This document shows positions 22,347-31,300 of a stretch of DNA of 64,000 nt, piece after piece. Numbering within the stretch: position 1 is the stretch's first letter; each line of letters starts with the position of its first letter. The stretch covers positions 9,152,001-9,216,000 of the forward strand of contig JASGJH010000001.1 of the NCBI GenBank assembly GCA_047601445.1, read 5' to 3'. Made by a program: the position numbers. The DNA is from Myxococcales bacterium (GTDB lineage: Bacteria > Myxococcota_A > Polyangia > Polyangiales > DASUME01).

Positions 22347-25300
22347 GCACGACCTGGGAGTGTTCAGCATGATTTCCTCGGACTCCCAGGCCATGGGGCG
22401 TGTGGGCGAGGTCATCACGCGCACCTTCCAGACCGCCCACAAGATGAAGGTCCAGCGCGGCAGCTTGGCGGAAGACACGGCGCGCCACGACAACTTCCGG
22501 GTCAAGCGCTACATCGCCAAGTGCACCATCAATCCCGCCATTGCCCACGGTATCTCGCACGAGGTGGGCTCCGTGGAGGTGGGCAAGTTGGCGGATCTCG
22601 TGCTGTGGAAACCGGCGTTTTTCGCGGCCAAGCCCAGCATGATTATCAAGGGTGGCATGATCGCCGCCGCCCCGATGGGGGATCCCAACGCCTCCATCCC
22701 CACGCCCCAACCCGTGCACTACCGGCGGATGTTCGCCGCTCTGGGGCGGGCCGTCGGCAAGACCTCCGTCACGTTCGTTTCTCAAGCCGCGCTCGAGCAG
22801 GACCTGGCGAACGAGCTCGGTCTGCAGCGGCGTCTGGTGGGTGTGCGTGGCTGCCGCAAGGTGCAGAAGAAACACATGATCCACAACGACCGTGCGCCCA
22901 CCATCCAGGTGGACTCGCAGACCTACGAGGTGCGTTGCGACGGTGAGCTCCTGACCTGCGAGCCCGCCAAGGAACTGCCCCTGGCTCAGCGCTACTTCCT
23001 GTTCTGAGGGGGCCCACGATGCTGGAGATTCGCGAGAAGGTTCGAAGCGGTGAGGTCACGGCCACGTTGACGTTGCCGTTCGAGGAGCGTCAGCGCACGC
23101 GGCGTCGCGTACGCCTGAGTACGGGCGAGAGCGCGCTGTTGTTGACGCCCCGGGGGACGTTGCTGCGCGGAGGAGACATCTTGTCGCTCTCCGATGGGCG
23201 CTGCGTGCGCGTGGTGGCCGCACCCGAGCAGGTCTCCACGGTGCACGCGGCGGAGCCACGCGCCCTGGCGCGTGTGGCGTACCACCTGGGAAATCGACAT
23301 GTGGCCCTGGAAGTGGGCGATGGCTTCGTGCGTTACCTCCACGACCACGTCCTGGACGACATGGTACGGGAGCTTGGGTTGAACGTGGTGGTGGAGAACG
23401 CAGCATTCGAGCCGGAGGGCGGGGCCTACGCGGGAGGTCACTCGCACGCGCACGGTCATTCTCATGCTCATCCCCACCCGCACGCTCCAGGTGAGGGGCA
23501 GAACCGCGTGAACCTCCAGGACCAGGGCGGCGAGCGCAGCGAGCTCCCGGGAGAGCCCAAGTGGTGAGCTCGCGGGCCCCACTCCTGCGGCTGTTGCAGC
23601 TGGCGAGCCCGGCTTTGCCCATCGGGGCGTACGCCTATTCGCGCGGTCTCGAGAGTGCGGTGCATTTCGGCTGGGTCAAAGACGAAGCGGAGGCCTGCCG
23701 CTGGATCGAGGGCATCCTCGAGCGCTCCGTGGCATCCCTCGACGGTCCCGTGTTTTTGCGGCTCTTCGACGCCTTCGTGGCCCAGGACACGGCGTGCGTG
23801 GAGCGTTGGAACGACTTTGCGTGTGCCGCCCGCGAGAGCCACGAGCTGGCCCTGGAGGACAGGCAGTTGGGGCTCGCGCTCGCGCGCGTCTTGAATGACC
23901 AAGGAGTCGAGGCTGCCGCCCATTTCCGCGGGCGCGGAGGCTACGCCACGCTGTTCGCGTTGGCCGCCAGCACCTGGGGAGTCGAGCGGGTGGACGCGCT
24001 CAGCGCGTTCCTGTTCGCGTTCGTGGAGAACCAGGTGAGCTGTGCCATCAAGTTGGTGCCGCTCGGGCAGAGCGCGGGGCAGCGCATTCTTTCCAGGTTG
24101 GTTGGGGTGGTTGACCGCCTGGTGCAGAGGGTCCTCGAGATCGGGGACGATGAGAATCGGTTCCTACACACCGCGCGTGGCGCTCGGCAGTGCCTGGCAC
24201 GAGACCCAGTACACGCGTCTTTTCCGTTCTTGAGGAGGAGTCATGACCAAGAGTGCGCTGCGATTGGGGGTGGGCGGCCCGGTGGGTTCGGGCAAGACGG
24301 CGTTGGTCCTGGCTCTGTGTAGACGGCTCCGCGATCACTACGACATCGCGGTGGTCACCAACGACATCTACACCAAGGAAGACGCCGAGTTCCTGCTGCG
24401 CAACGAGGCGCTGCCCCGCGAGCGTATCGCCGGCGTGGAGACCGGCGGCTGTCCCCACACCGCCATCCGAGAAGACGCCTCCATGAACCTGGCCGCCGTG
24501 GAGGACATGGTGCTCAAGTTCCCGAAGCTACAGATGGTCATCATCGAGAGCGGGGGCGACAACCTGAGCGCCACCTTTAGCCCGGAGCTGTCCGACCTCA
24601 CGCTCTACGTCATCGACGTGGCGGCGGGCGACAAGATTCCGCGCAAGGGCGGGCCCGGCATCACCAAGAGCGACCTCTTGATCATCAACAAGACCGACCT
24701 GGCGCCCCACGTGGGCGCATCGCTCGAGGTCATGGATCGCGACGCCCGCAAGATGCGCGGCGAGCGGCCCTTCGTGTTCACCTGCTTGAAGACGGGCGAC
24801 GGTCTGGAGAACGTCGTGCGCTTCATCGAGCAGGAAGGGATTCTAGCCGGAGACTGACGAAGTCAGTCCCCGGCCCGTGCCGGCCTTGCGCAAGCAAGGC
24901 GCGCCTGTGCGTGTGCCCGCTCAGAAGGCGGCCTTCAAGCCGATATGGAACCAGCGCGGGGCGTTGGGGCGCGCGCCGAACGGGCGGTGCGACACCAGGT
25001 AGACCGAGTTCAGCAGGTTGTTGATGGTGCCGTAGATCTGCAGCGGGCCCCACACCTTGGCCCAGGCGCTGGCGTCCACCAGGGTCTGCGCGTCGGTGTA
25101 CAGCTCGCGGTGATCGGAGCCCACGCCGGTGCTGCCGTCGCCGGTCTTGCTCATGTAGCTCACGGCCACCGCGCCGCCCGCGGGCTTGGCCTCTACGCCG
25201 AGGCTCGCGCGCATCAGGTGCTGGGGCACGTTGGGCATCAGGTCGCCCTTCTCCACGTCGCCCCAGATCGGGTTCTGCGATGAGAAAGTCTCGAGGAACT

Positions 25301-28300: not shown

Positions 28301-31300
28301 GGGTAAGTCGGTCTGGGAGGCCAGCCAGATACGCAGTGGCTGAGCGTGCAGCAGCCAATCGCCGTGCGCCTTGGCCAGACCCGCGAACGTGTAGACGATA
28401 CCCACCTGGAAGCGGAACAGGAACTGCCACATCCGTGCCACATGCTCGCGCGCGTAGCCCGGGTTTCGCCAGGCCTTGATGGAGCCCCAGCGATCGGCCG
28501 GCGAGAGCGCGAGCAGAAACGAGAGCAGCGTGGCGAGGTAGTAGTGGTTCAGGTACGTGGTGACGTCGAGCAGCTGCAGATACGCGAAGCCGATGGCGAA
28601 CAACCAGGCAGCCAACCGGAACCACACCCCCAGCGCGATCAAGATCGCGAGCAGGGCGAGTCCCCCAAACACCGCGTGCATGCCCAAGCGCGGCAGCGGC
28701 TCGAGCCAGCCGAAGCCGTAGTACTTGAAGTGAAAGCTAGGATTCACGAAGAAAGCGTCGACCCAGCCGTAGACGATGGAGCGCATCATGCTGATGCACA
28801 TCGCCAGGCCGAACAATACCCGTAGGGCACCGAGCCACGCGATGTCGACGTGTTCGCCGAGGGCCGTCCGAGCCTTGTTCGTCCAGCCCTCAGTCATTGT
28901 CGCCGACAAGCATCATCGGGGCGTCGAGGTTCAATACCGTGATCACGTCGGTCTTGAGCACGTCGCTGATAGCCTTGAACGCAGCGTACACCGGGGCGAC
29001 GCTGCCCGGATTCTGCTCAAATGCGCCATTCAGATCGAATTGCGCGATGGCCGCGTCGGCCGCGTCGAGAGCCGCTGACATCTCGTCCGCCACGCTGTCC
29101 GCGCCCACCGCGTGGAGCCAGTCGTCGAACCCGAGGCCCTGGTAGTCCGGTCCGCAGCCTTGGTACAGCAGGCGAAATGCCTTCAGGTTGGCCCGCACGT
29201 TGTCGCTGGCCACGCGCGCATAGCGTGTCTCGGCGTAGCCCGCGCAGTTCGCGGTGCACTCCACGAGCCCGGCCGGCCGCCCGAGCTTCCACTGCTTCAC
29301 GTCCTGCTCCAGGTAGAACAGGCCGTTGCTCACCGCGTTGAGGGCAGCCTGCTCGCTCATGTACACCGCGCCGCCGGGACCCGCGCTGGCGAGCGTCTGC
29401 GCGAAGTTTCCACCGCTCGCGCTCCAGGCGGAGAGTAAGAGCGCCGACTTGGCGCGGATGTCGTGGCCCAACGCGCCTGCGTAAGCCACCTTGCGATTCG
29501 CGAGCTCCTCGGCCGAAAGCATCGACCAGAGCTGCTTGCCATTGAGCCGATTCAGGGCCGTGCAGCCGTTGTCCGTGTTCGTGTAGAACAGCATGTACTC
29601 CACGGCGCCGAGCCCGCGCGCACCGGCGGGGGCCATGTCGAAGGTGGAGCCCGCATAGGTCTGATCGTAGAGCTGCTCCTCCATCGAACAGCGGTTCACG
29701 GCGGGGAAGGCGTAAATCTCGTCGCGCAGTCCCTCTCCGCCCGGGTCGCCCTTGGGGGCCTGCGGGCCGAAGCCGAACATCTCGAGGATCTGCCACTGCT
29801 GCAGCGCGTGGTACCAAGCGTCGCGCGCACCCGTCAGCGACTCGGGAGATGGGGCCGCGGCGTAGGCCGCGAGCTTGGTCTCCAGCTCCACCGCGAGCGG
29901 GTCGAACTGGCATAGCTGCTGCTGCGTGCACTGGGCCACGCTGGTGAGCAGTGCGCTCTTGGAGAAGGGCGCATCGAGGTTGGTCAGGAACGCGCAAGCG
30001 GCGCTCCCTATGCCCGCATCGCCAGCGCCGCCGTCGGAGTCCGTTGGCGAGGGAGTGCTCGGGACGAAGGTCATGCCCGAATCGAGGTGGCCGCCGACCC
30101 CAGGGTTCGACGCGGGGGCCATCGGGCTGACGTGCTCGGGGAGAGCCAGCTTGTCGCAGCCCATGGCGAACCCCAGTGCGACCAAGAACCCTGCGCGAAG
30201 AGACTGCGAACCCATATCGATTACCTTCTCAAAATCCGTATTTTACGGGCGTCTTCATAGCAAAAGGCGCGGGAGCTCGCTCCCGCGCCTGAGGACCATC
30301 GGCCGCGCTGGGTCTACTGCTCTTGGAGCGAGAAGATCACCAGGGCCGCGTTGTCGTTGGCTGCCGTACTGCCCGCGCTGGCACCGGCGGCCACCACGTA
30401 CTTGCCGTCGGCAGATTCTGCGAGACCGAGGAAGTTGTCGTTCGTCTGGTTGAAGTCGTAGGCCTTGTGACCGACGGTGTTGAACGTCGTGTCGGCGACG
30501 CCGTCCTTCGTGAGCATGCCGATCACGGCGCTCTTCTTCTTATCGGCGGCCACACCCACCGCGCCCTGACCCACATACACGACGCGGTCGTCGTGCAGCA
30601 CGATCACGTTGCGGCCGTTCTCGGCGCCGGTGGCCGCATTCTCGGCGTTGGAGAGCTTGTCGAGCTGGAAGTAGCCCTGGCCGTTGCTCCAATCGGAGTC
30701 GGGTTCGCCGGTGCCGGAGATGCGGAGCGAGAAGATGGAGTCGGCCGGATCACCGTCGGAGTGCTCACCGTAGCCGATCGTCACGAAGGAACCGTTCGAC
30801 TGACGGGCGGCGCCGTACGCCTCGCAGGCACCGGTCGTGCTCGGATCATTGGTCTGGAAGGGGTTGAACACGAGCAAGCCGCCGATGGCGAAACCCGGCA
30901 CGAAGTGTCCCTGCGCGTCCAGGCGCGCGATGATCATGTTGGCCTTGCCGTCGATCTGCTGGTAGCCGGCCGAAACGATCTCGTCGTTGGGCAGGATGTC
31001 ATTGCGGCGCGCGTTCTCGGAGCGGTCGCCGGGGGCATTGATGGCCACGGTGCCGCTGGTCCCGAAGTCAGCGTCCAGGGCGCCGTCGCGTTCGAGGCGC
31101 GTGATGTAGCGGTCGAAGTCCTTGCGCTCGCCGATGGCCTTGGAGCGCGTGGAGAGCACCAGGCGATTCTGGCTGTCCACGTCGATGTCATAGGCGTCGT
31201 CGTTGAGGGGATTGCCCAGCGAGTACACCGGAGGTTGGTCGGTGGTAGCGCTGATCACGGGGACCATGGGCCCTGCGATCCAGAGGATGCCGTCTTCGTC

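What a model noticed while it worked through the whole genome (the two positions that open the first line are those of the whole stretch)
24921..30215. Full-length vitamin-K carboxylase (GGCX) homologs are a fixed part of imelysin/TonB iron-uptake operons
All three full-length GGCX homologs of this genome (also 2421585-2422970 and 6664379-6665653) sit next to an imelysin-family lipoprotein, with a TonB receptor or di-haem DHOR gene. The enzyme keeps the GGCX catalytic motifs and the partner ends in an invariant Asp-x-Asp, which points to a bacterial quinone-dependent protein carboxylation in iron uptake, with the imelysin tail as candidate substrate.
Evidence so far: Context call 30. VKGC_lumenal and Peptidase_M75 are within two genes in 3,610 of 4,412 genomes having both. 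Whole-length match to human GGCX structures, E 7e-26, with NHxY and the G-x-x-K lysine aligned. In 80 related loci from several phyla 76 carry the imelysin partner, 50 a TonB receptor; 69 of 76 partners end exactly in DxD, 74 within three residues; 72 of 80 enzymes keep LNHxY and 69 the Lys motif. D439 and D441 are invariant in 30 aligned partners.
(Added by a program. Inside this text positions count along the whole contig: contig position 9,152,001 is position 1 of the stretch shown here. "Call 12" and the like, gene names such as g00115 and contig names such as C1 are that model's own, and its searches are not shown. The text may have been shortened before it was handed on; [...] marks where a part breaks off. 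The agent that wrote the report below was given it as the finding of a first reader that could run no searches.)

Follow-up and report, generated by a model that had tools for sequence, protein, structure and literature searches.

The report
Carboxylase homolog paired with iron lipoprotein
A bacterial relative of the human vitamin-K carboxylase sits in an iron-starvation gene cassette beside a lipoprotein whose acidic tail is predicted to enter its active site, and two unrelated enzymes take its place in other bacteria, which suggests the tail is chemically converted into a protein-bound iron chelator.

Summary
The operon is real: IPPA-type imelysin lipoprotein, GGCX-like enzyme, FecA-like TonB receptor, with Fur-like boxes upstream. 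The linkage holds for one clade of full-length homologs, not for all: 29 of 37 Bacteroidota and 39 of 51 own-phylum matches are linked. The Asp-x-Asp tail is not GGCX-specific; 34 of 36 IPPA proteins from GGCX-less Pseudomonadota also end in it. There another gene fills the slot: DUF1513 or a membrane di-iron hydroxylase. Of 188 tailed loci, 177 carry one of the three enzymes, none carries GGCX plus another, and 10 of the other 11 are cut contigs. GGCX and hydroxylase swap repeatedly on the IPPA tree. A predicted complex scores 0.84 (best control 0.01); its interface lists include the tail and the residues of the human Glu pocket. The base-generating residues are kept, while Y395, N158, N290, M401 and K217 are changed. 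Best reading (0.5): a maturation enzyme that modifies tail aspartates into a tethered Fe(III) chelator; carboxylation versus hydroxylation is open. No activity is shown, and some carriers lack menaquinone genes.

The parts
28890..30215 (-). IPPA/PA4372-type imelysin-like lipoprotein, 441 aa, lipobox Cys20, GxxxxE motif (GLGAVE) without His; candidate substrate
   Evidence: PF09375 E 2.6e-27; profile of partners matches IPPA 3pf0 to the last profile position; sequence
28893..28901 (-). C-terminal Asp439-Asn440-Asp441 tail
   Evidence: D439 is the only invariant column of 72 partners, D441 at least 90%; residues 436-440 in the predicted interface
27515..28909 (-). GGCX-like inner-membrane enzyme (HTTM + VKGC lumenal domain), 464 aa from TTG 28909; likelier start ATG 28897, overlapping the last codons of the lipoprotein gene; lacks the C-terminal ~250 residues of human GGCX
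   Evidence: N121, H122, K180, W185, D226, F263 invariant in 93 linked enzymes
24921..27455 (-). FecA-like TonB-dependent receptor, about 844 aa with a Pro/Ala-rich N-terminal spacer; the same subfamily occurs in the hydroxylase-type cassette
   Evidence: Plug + barrel; TIGR01783 and FecA partial hits below cut-off
30314..32168 (-). Delta-60-repeat (DUF5122) beta-propeller lipoprotein, usual neighbour in Myxococcota; here split over two frames by a frameshift between about 31250 and 31440
32244..32262 (.). Fur-like box, 13 of 19 to the recalled E. coli consensus
   Evidence: overlaps a sigma70-like site
32338..32356 (.). Second Fur-like box, 13 of 19
   Evidence: overlaps a sigma70-like site
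32526..33407 (+). Divergent TonB-family protein (C-terminal TonB domain, just under cut-off)
30265..30290 (-). Terminator-like hairpin between the propeller gene and the lipoprotein gene
   Evidence: 2 found, 4.3 expected by chance: weak

Best explanation
The enzyme is the dedicated maturation enzyme of the IPPA lipoprotein in an iron-starvation cassette. After export, the lipoprotein docks its last helix on the enzyme's periplasmic domain and threads its flexible Asp-x-Asp tail into the site where human GGCX holds glutamate. Lys180 deprotonates a membrane quinol, O2 turns it into a strong base, and a C-H next to a tail carboxylate is functionalised: by CO2 (beta-carboxy-Asp, or alpha-carboxylation of the terminal Asp as MloH does) or by oxygen (beta-hydroxy-Asp). 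I put carboxylation slightly ahead for this enzyme, about 55:45. The modified tail is a protein-tethered Fe(III) chelator that serves the FecA-like receptor or the DHOR/ICMP system. A membrane di-iron hydroxylase clade and DUF1513 are non-homologous alternatives giving the same outcome. Shown: gene linkage, clade, residues, exclusivity, Fur-like boxes. Modelled: the complex. Inferred: covalent modification, its chemistry, iron binding by the tail, and oxygenase activity of DUF1513.
For: (1) Predicted complex 0.84, best of 3 controls 0.01; mark reached by 116 of 157 solved and 2 of 215 mismatched pairs; runs agree in at least 77% of contacts, partner pLDDT at least 89; interface lists include enzyme 120-122, 259-263, 348, 352-356, 419-427 and lipoprotein 417-429, 436-440. 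(2) N159, H160, K218, W223, D263, F299 equivalents invariant in 93 of 93 linked enzymes, R406 equivalent K/R in 93; roles read in PMC12647623 section 13. (3) Clade-specific remodelling of the substrate site: N158 to L 92/93, N290 to T 92/93, M401 to V 92/93, while 8 unlinked homologs keep N 7/8, N 8/8, M 8/8. (4) 177 of 188 tailed loci carry GGCX (101), hydroxylase (40), DUF1513 (35) or hydroxylase beside a DUF1513 gene (1); none GGCX plus another; 10 of the 11 without are cut contigs; 10 tail-less DHOR-linked imelysins have none of the three. (5) GGCX/hydroxylase label changes 7 times on the IPPA tree, 4-5 forced by starred branches. (6) Linked hydroxylases have R139 41/44 and R184 42/44 beside the His boxes, 0/13 in unlinked ones; two are fused in frame to IPPA; where the hydroxylase pairs with a DUF4856-like protein alone, that protein ends E-T/N-D (4 of 4). 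(7) IPPA lacks the family's usual metal ligands, did not bind Fe(III), haem or Zn when made in E. coli, and its last six residues are disordered. (8) Positive-inside pattern puts K180 and the lumenal domain in the periplasm. (9) Precedent for Asp carboxylation by MloH, second-hand.
Against: No activity, product or iron binding measured. Y395, needed in human GGCX, is M 52, Y 30, F 11 of 93; K217 is Ala in 93 of 93, the change linked to uncoupled epoxidation in Leptospira. The complex was built from my own paired 72-row alignments; human GGCX-peptide structures exist, so tail insertion may be partly from memory; the tool named no tail-to-pocket pair among its best pairs and D441 is not in the list. 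The hydroxylase His boxes lie on the cytoplasmic side by family topology (inference), so it would have to act before export. DUF1513 matches only generic seven-bladed propellers. Seven gammaproteobacterial carriers lack menB over cut-off and six lack PF02621 (one, G558, is unpublished). L164 keeps a hydroxylase with no IPPA found. The DUF1513 contrast is a single split confounded with phylum. 88 of the 102 GGCX loci were fetched because of the enzyme.
Confidence: 0.5

Rival explanations
1. Docking without covalent change: the tail carries Fe(III) to the membrane protein, where bound quinol reduces and releases it (or the partner otherwise unloads the iron). The three alternative partners are iron-unloading stations in cassettes that lack an EfeU permease.
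For: Same predicted contact. These operons lack EfeU. K217A-type uncoupling. Hydroxylase-family and DUF1513 partners both have His-rich metal sites. Carriers without menaquinone genes could use ubiquinol as a plain reductant.
Against: Full retention of the strong-base and carboxylate-binding residues is more than electron transfer needs; the human pocket is narrow for a metal-loaded tail (inference); DUF1513 is soluble and the hydroxylase site faces the cytoplasm.
Confidence: 0.2
2. The enzyme and its substitutes act on a small molecule or lipid (a citrate/malonate-like chelator for the FecA-like receptor, a quinone, or the lipoprotein's acyl chains); the lipoprotein is an activator or carrier.
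For: MloH acts on a natural-product intermediate; PF04116 enzymes normally act on lipids; giant viruses fuse a GGCX-like epoxidase to a sterol desaturase; one unlinked homolog lies near an unrelated PF04116 gene (L169).
Against: No biosynthetic genes seen in the cassettes I annotated (only the listed families and nearby ORFs were examined); in these cassettes GGCX and hydroxylase exclude each other rather than cooperate; the acidic tail follows the enzyme even onto a different protein.
Confidence: 0.17
3. Uncoupled quinol oxidase/epoxidase or non-catalytic membrane anchor: linkage reflects co-regulation by iron and the tail is simply a conserved metal ligand or protein-protein handle of IPPA proteins.
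For: The Leptospira homolog is reported to epoxidise without substrate activation (lack of carboxylation recalled from Rishavy 2005, not read). The tail is universal in the family. One genome copy is degenerate yet still beside its partner.
Against: Does not explain one-for-one replacement by unrelated enzymes at least four times, clade-specific pocket changes or the passing complex.
Confidence: 0.1

Closest known systems
[quoted passage not shown]
   Same: Whole-length sequence and fold match over human residues 50-506; N159, H160, K218, W223, D263, F299 kept; active site opens to the exported side.
   Different: No region beyond about residue 506 (propeptide clamp partly absent); K217A, N158L, N290T, M401V, Y395 variable; partner has Asp-x-Asp and no Gla domain; some carriers lack menaquinone genes.
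MloH of malonomycin biosynthesis
   Same: Bacterial full-length VKDC homolog that carboxylates an Asp residue (second-hand).
   Different: Acts on a PKS-NRPS intermediate; no such genes here. I did not place MloH on my tree.
Leptospira carboxylase homolog (Rishavy 2005)
   Same: K217 not conserved; bacterial full-length homolog.
   Different: Paper not held; its clade and gene neighbours were not tested; the three imelysin papers I searched for it (two Leptospira, one Tenacibaculum) do not mention a carboxylase in the main text.
Fur-regulated imelysin operons (PA4370-PA4373; IPPA family, Xu et al. 2011; DUF1513 fitness data)
   Same: IPPA-type lipoprotein with DGD tail, often with ICMP and DHOR; iron regulation; DUF1513 cofit with the operon.
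   Different: The slot after IPPA holds a GGCX-like enzyme instead of DUF1513; this copy has a FecA-like receptor and a delta-60 propeller instead of ICMP-DHOR. The parts of Xu et al. that I read assign no role to the tail.
Short HTTM proteins (SdpB/DUF5819 pairs, linaridin HTTM proteins, viral epoxidase-desaturases)
   Same: HTTM domain with the catalytic Lys; five further HTTM matches in this genome.
   Different: They lack or split the lumenal domain and are not imelysin-linked; SdpB and linaridin roles are recalled or from listings only.
Peptide Asp beta-hydroxylases (SmaO; siderophore beta-hydroxylases)
   Same: Hydroxylation of both Asp in a D-G-D motif is known chemistry; beta-hydroxy-Asp as an Fe(III) ligand in siderophores is recalled.
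   Different: Those are Fe(II)/2-oxoglutarate enzymes, unrelated to any of the three slot enzymes.

Membership tests
GGCX/VKGC family (full-length) | HTTM domain plus VKGC lumenal domain over cut-off | tested here: met
GGCX/VKGC family (full-length) | GGCX fold | tested here: met
   model pLDDT 94; Foldseek TMq 0.79-0.84 to GGCX, next family E 0.43
GGCX/VKGC family (full-length) | Quinol-deprotonating base K218 with W223 and D263 | tested here: met
   K180, W185, D226 in 93 of 93
Glu-specific vitamin K carboxylase (animal type) | Carboxylate triad N159, H160, Y395 | tested here: not met
   N and H 93 of 93; Y395 is M here, Tyr in 30 of 93 (mapping)
Glu-specific vitamin K carboxylase (animal type) | K217 coupling residue and C-terminal propeptide-binding region | tested here: not met
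   Ala in 93 of 93; match ends at human residue 506
Glu-specific vitamin K carboxylase (animal type) | Menaquinone available in every carrier | tested here: inconclusive
   own genome and G003 have PF02621; seven gammaproteobacterial carriers have no menB over cut-off, six no PF02621 (G558 not searched for it); most are MAGs
Glu-specific vitamin K carboxylase (animal type) | CO2 incorporation into a protein residue | not testable with these tools
   needs assay
IPPA/PA4372 family of imelysin-like proteins | Imelysin domain with GxxxxE instead of GxHxxE, lipoprotein signal | tested here: met
   family definition read
IPPA/PA4372 family of imelysin-like proteins | Profile match to IPPA (3pf0) through the C-terminus | tested here: met
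   E 1.2e-24, profile 2-348; other imelysin structures score as well or better but stop before the tail
Fur-regulated iron-uptake operon | Fur box upstream | tested here: met
   two 13/19 sites in the intergenic region (73 sites of 13 or more on one strand of the genome); 44 of 89 GGCX loci have 13 or more, mean best 12.6 vs 10.4 shuffled; consensus recalled
Fur-regulated iron-uptake operon | Induction by iron limitation | not testable with these tools
   no run listed for this organism; a same-order cassette is induced in Riemerella (identity by gene order, not checked by sequence)
PA4370-PA4373-type operon | ICMP + DHOR + IPPA + DUF1513 | tested here: not met
   window cassette has no ICMP or DHOR; no DUF1513 in the genome
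His-ligated propeller metalloenzymes (for DUF1513) | Specific structural match to SBP56, N2OR or TcDH | tested here: inconclusive
   five invariant His; Z 30.5 to SBP56 tied with non-metal propellers

The most novel reading that the evidence does not exclude
IPPA-type imelysins are ribosomally made, protein-tethered siderophores: their terminal Asp-x-Asp is post-translationally carboxylated or hydroxylated, and bacteria recruited three unrelated enzymes for it (a GGCX clade, a membrane di-iron hydroxylase clade, DUF1513). This would give the first protein substrate and physiological role for a widespread bacterial vitamin-K-carboxylase clade, possibly running on ubiquinol in some hosts, and functions for DUF1513 and the PA4372 family.
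Probability: 0.4. Interest if true: 0.93.

Novelty: new variant of a known kind. Interest (0 to 1): 0.8.

Why it matters
What bacterial GGCX homologs do has been open for two decades; the only function I found cited is MloH. This names a specific protein substrate and residue for the clade that makes up most full-length homologs in the two phyla sampled, testable with one knock-out and one mass spectrum. The three-way swap also gives a shared hypothesis for DUF1513 and for the imelysin operon of Pseudomonas and Vibrio, and suggests why recombinant IPPA bound no iron. It bears on the origin of the animal enzyme.

Tried and rejected
DxD as a GGCX-specific mark: rejected (the IPPA cloning primer in PMC3143127 also encodes a D-G-D end). 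'All full-length homologs are linked': rejected. Menaquinone use explains the distribution: not supported, gammaproteobacterial carriers lack the genes. GGCX and desaturase cooperate as in giant viruses: not in these cassettes, 0 co-occurrences; L260 has a short HTTM gene (E 1e-11) on the other strand, below my 1e-25 threshold and left out. DUF4856 as a hidden imelysin: hhalign probability 7% or less. ExD-tailed DUF4856-like proteins as IPPA chimeras: no homology found. Surface-export signal in Bacteroidota partners: 8 of 19 detected lipoboxes acidic, inconclusive. GGCX-imelysin fusion: none among 8000 long candidates, one GGCX-receptor fusion (weak). Strict Fur pattern with 3 mismatches: 0 hits. 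Sequencing runs: none was listed, so the frameshift was not checked. No known enzyme singled out for DUF1513. Literature searches without a paper discussing the link. Rishavy 2005 and a siderophore hydroxylase paper not held; Law 2018 not read; no supplements opened, and Fig. 8 of Xu et al. was not visible and may draw the gene.

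
Full report
OBSERVATION. The minus strand carries a 441-aa imelysin-like lipoprotein (28890-30215; PF09375) ending V-G-D-N-D, a 464-aa protein with HTTM and VKGC lumenal domains (27515-28909) and a FecA-like TonB receptor (24921-27455). The enzyme's likely ATG overlaps the lipoprotein's last codons. It matches human GGCX residues 50-506 (E 8e-26) and its model (pLDDT 94) matches only GGCX structures. The genome has three full-length homologs and five weaker HTTM matches; each of the three lies beside an IPPA-type imelysin ending in DxD, the other two with DHOR and ICMP. 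Upstream lie a frameshifted delta-60 propeller gene, two Fur-like boxes (13 of 19) and a divergent TonB gene.

HOW GENERAL. Of 80 loci found with the enzyme, 76 have the partner, 70 end in DxD and 75 within three residues. In 151 Bacteroidota genomes (150 drawn plus the centre), 32 have the lumenal domain; 29 of 37 matches lie beside an imelysin. In 151 own-phylum genomes 39 of 51 matches over cut-off are linked, counted by hand from the coordinates; 3 of the 12 others are at contig edges. The 8 unlinked Bacteroidota proteins sit in other contexts and outside the linked clade (SH-aLRT 99; three partial rows left out; long branches among the unlinked). So the linkage is a property of one clade. 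Fur-like boxes of 13 or more of 19 precede 44 of 89 GGCX cassettes (mean best 12.6, shuffled 10.4; consensus recalled). A Riemerella Fur study lists TonB receptor, 'vitamin K-dependent gamma-carboxylase', imelysin and a hypothetical gene as consecutive iron-induced genes (PMC5609570, Table 4 and section 17 read; WT-Fe/WT+Fe 2.64, fur mutant/WT only 1.39 for the enzyme).

THE TAIL IS NOT GGCX-SPECIFIC. Of 201 Pseudomonadota genomes 46 have an imelysin; among these only the centre genome has a full-length HTTM match. In 40 fetched loci, 34 of 36 IPPA-type proteins end in DxD and 35 within three residues. The solved IPPA has the same end, disordered in the crystal (PMC3143127, parts 1-4 of 6 read). 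In those loci the next gene is DUF1513; 34 of 78 genomes searched have it over cut-off, none of them a carrier of the linked enzyme. DUF1513 is cofit with its operon (bioRxiv 072470, passage). Its model is a seven-bladed propeller with five invariant His and no distinguishing structural match.

A THIRD OCCUPANT. One fetched locus (L155) had the Bacteroidota-style cassette DUF4856-IPPA-same receptor, with a PF04116 membrane di-iron protein instead of the enzyme; earlier scan notes on such cassettes prompted me to look at it. Searching from the lipoprotein side gave both versions in close relatives, ICMP-DHOR-IPPA-hydroxylase-CCP loci, and own-phylum genomes whose tailed IPPA lacks the enzyme and has the hydroxylase, sometimes fused in frame to IPPA (L254, L256) or to the receptor through the downstream signal peptide. 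L255, from the window's own order, has the window's gene set with the hydroxylase in the slot. Tally over all IPPA-like loci: tailed 188 = GGCX 101, hydroxylase 40, DUF1513 35 (one is a cut hydroxylase-type cassette beside a DUF1513 gene), hydroxylase plus neighbouring DUF1513 1, none 11 (10 cut at or before the slot, L274 unclear); untailed 17 = 1 frameshifted GGCX partner, 6 cut or broken, 10 DHOR-linked tail-less imelysins with none of the three. Loci include near-duplicates and 88 of 102 GGCX loci were fetched through the enzyme. On an IPPA tree (114 rows, 57 thinned out, FastTree) the GGCX and hydroxylase labels each change 7 times, 4 and 5 forced by starred branches; DUF1513 is one split. 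Linked hydroxylases form one group (support 85) with two specific arginines by the His boxes (41/44, 42/44 vs 0/13), and four two-gene cassettes pair the hydroxylase with a DUF4856-like protein that itself ends E-T/N-D. Against this: L164 has a hydroxylase with no IPPA found, and related hydroxylases occur unlinked in DUF1513 genomes.

ACTIVE SITE. Human roles were read in PMC12647623 (section 13, passages) and bioRxiv 2025.02.09.637231 (passages). In 93 linked enzymes the equivalents of N159, H160, K218, W223, D263, F286, H287 and F299 are invariant and R406 is K/R; K217 is Ala; Y395 is M 52, Y 30, F 11; N158, N290 and M401 become L, T and V, which the unlinked homologs do not share. Charge distribution puts the site on the periplasmic side. 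The genome has futalosine-pathway genes, but seven gammaproteobacterial carriers have no menB over cut-off and six no PF02621 (G558 unpublished), so strict vitamin K dependence is doubtful.

COMPLEX. Enzyme plus lipoprotein residues 70-441: score 0.84, best of 3 controls 0.01; the mark was reached by 116 of 157 solved and 2 of 215 mismatched pairs (roughly, as my own alignments were used); runs share at least 77% of contacts, partner pLDDT at least 89. The best pairs join the lipoprotein's last helix (421-429) to enzyme strands 352-356 and 419-427. The lists also hold tail residues 436-440 and pocket residues 120-122, 259-263 and 348; that these touch each other is my inference, as no such pair is printed and D441 is not named. 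No GGCX-imelysin structure turned up, but GGCX-peptide complexes exist and may guide the tail.

MECHANISM. Best reading (0.5): the enzyme matures the lipoprotein by modifying tail aspartates into a tethered Fe(III) chelator; carboxylation has family precedent (MloH, second-hand), hydroxylation is suggested by the substitute enzyme and by known D-G-D hydroxylation. It fits IPPA's lack of the usual metal ligands and of iron binding when made in E. coli. Rivals: docking for quinol-driven iron release (0.2), a small-molecule or lipid substrate (0.17; compare the viral epoxidase-desaturase pairs), uncoupled or structural role (0.1). The main difficulty for the best reading is that the hydroxylase should face the cytoplasm.

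KNOWN OR NEW. It is a member of the full-length GGCX family but fails tests for the animal Glu-specific type; it works, by inference, like GGCX or MloH. The cassette is a variant of Fur-regulated imelysin operons. Ten searches of open-access full text found the genes together only in the Riemerella table and no discussion of the link, the tail or the swap; subscription papers, figures and supplements were not seen. This scan had noted the hydroxylase cassette on other DNA and a different GGCX homolog with an adhesin head; no note held both imelysin and HTTM. Verdict: new variant of a known kind, interest 0.8; the tethered-siderophore reading would be categorically new (probability 0.4).

Noticed in passing
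window 16910-24857 (+): Run of ABC transporter genes followed by what reads as a complete urease cluster (structural and accessory genes), converging on the receptor gene; names from reading the ORFs, not from a family search.
   Followed up: no
window 30314-32168 (-) and contig 2425556-2426801: Both the delta-60 propeller gene here and the ICMP gene of the second cassette are split by a frameshift; assembly error or decay not resolved.
   Followed up: partly
contig 6664379-6665818 (L002): Third GGCX copy is convergent with its partner and is the only one of 93 lacking E339 and R343.
   Followed up: partly
L254, L256; L257, L258, L261-L264, L266, L268, L269, L271-L273; P0001: Polyprotein-like in-frame fusions: hydroxylase-IPPA, hydroxylase-TonB receptor and GGCX-TonB receptor, with the downstream signal peptide kept inside the ORF.
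   Followed up: partly
L234-L236, L238: Two-gene cassette of a DUF4856-like exported protein ending E-T/N-D and a di-iron hydroxylase, without imelysin.
   Followed up: partly
L165, L168-L172, L166, L167, L284-L289, L291: Full-length GGCX homologs without imelysin, keeping N158, N290 and M401 in the Bacteroidota ones; several in housekeeping neighbourhoods, L167 in front of a very large protein, L169 near a PF04116 gene.
   Followed up: partly
L276-L283, L292, L293: Own-phylum cassettes of a tail-less imelysin with DHOR and an upstream outer-membrane-like gene; none of the three slot enzymes.
   Followed up: partly
L080, L083, L084, L086, L089: Chloroflexota partners have the DGD followed by two or three more residues, and in three loci the enzyme gene is convergent with the operon.
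   Followed up: no
window 33458-35947 (-): Two further lipoprotein-like genes beyond the TonB gene: a propeller-repeat protein and a protein with no Pfam match.
   Followed up: no
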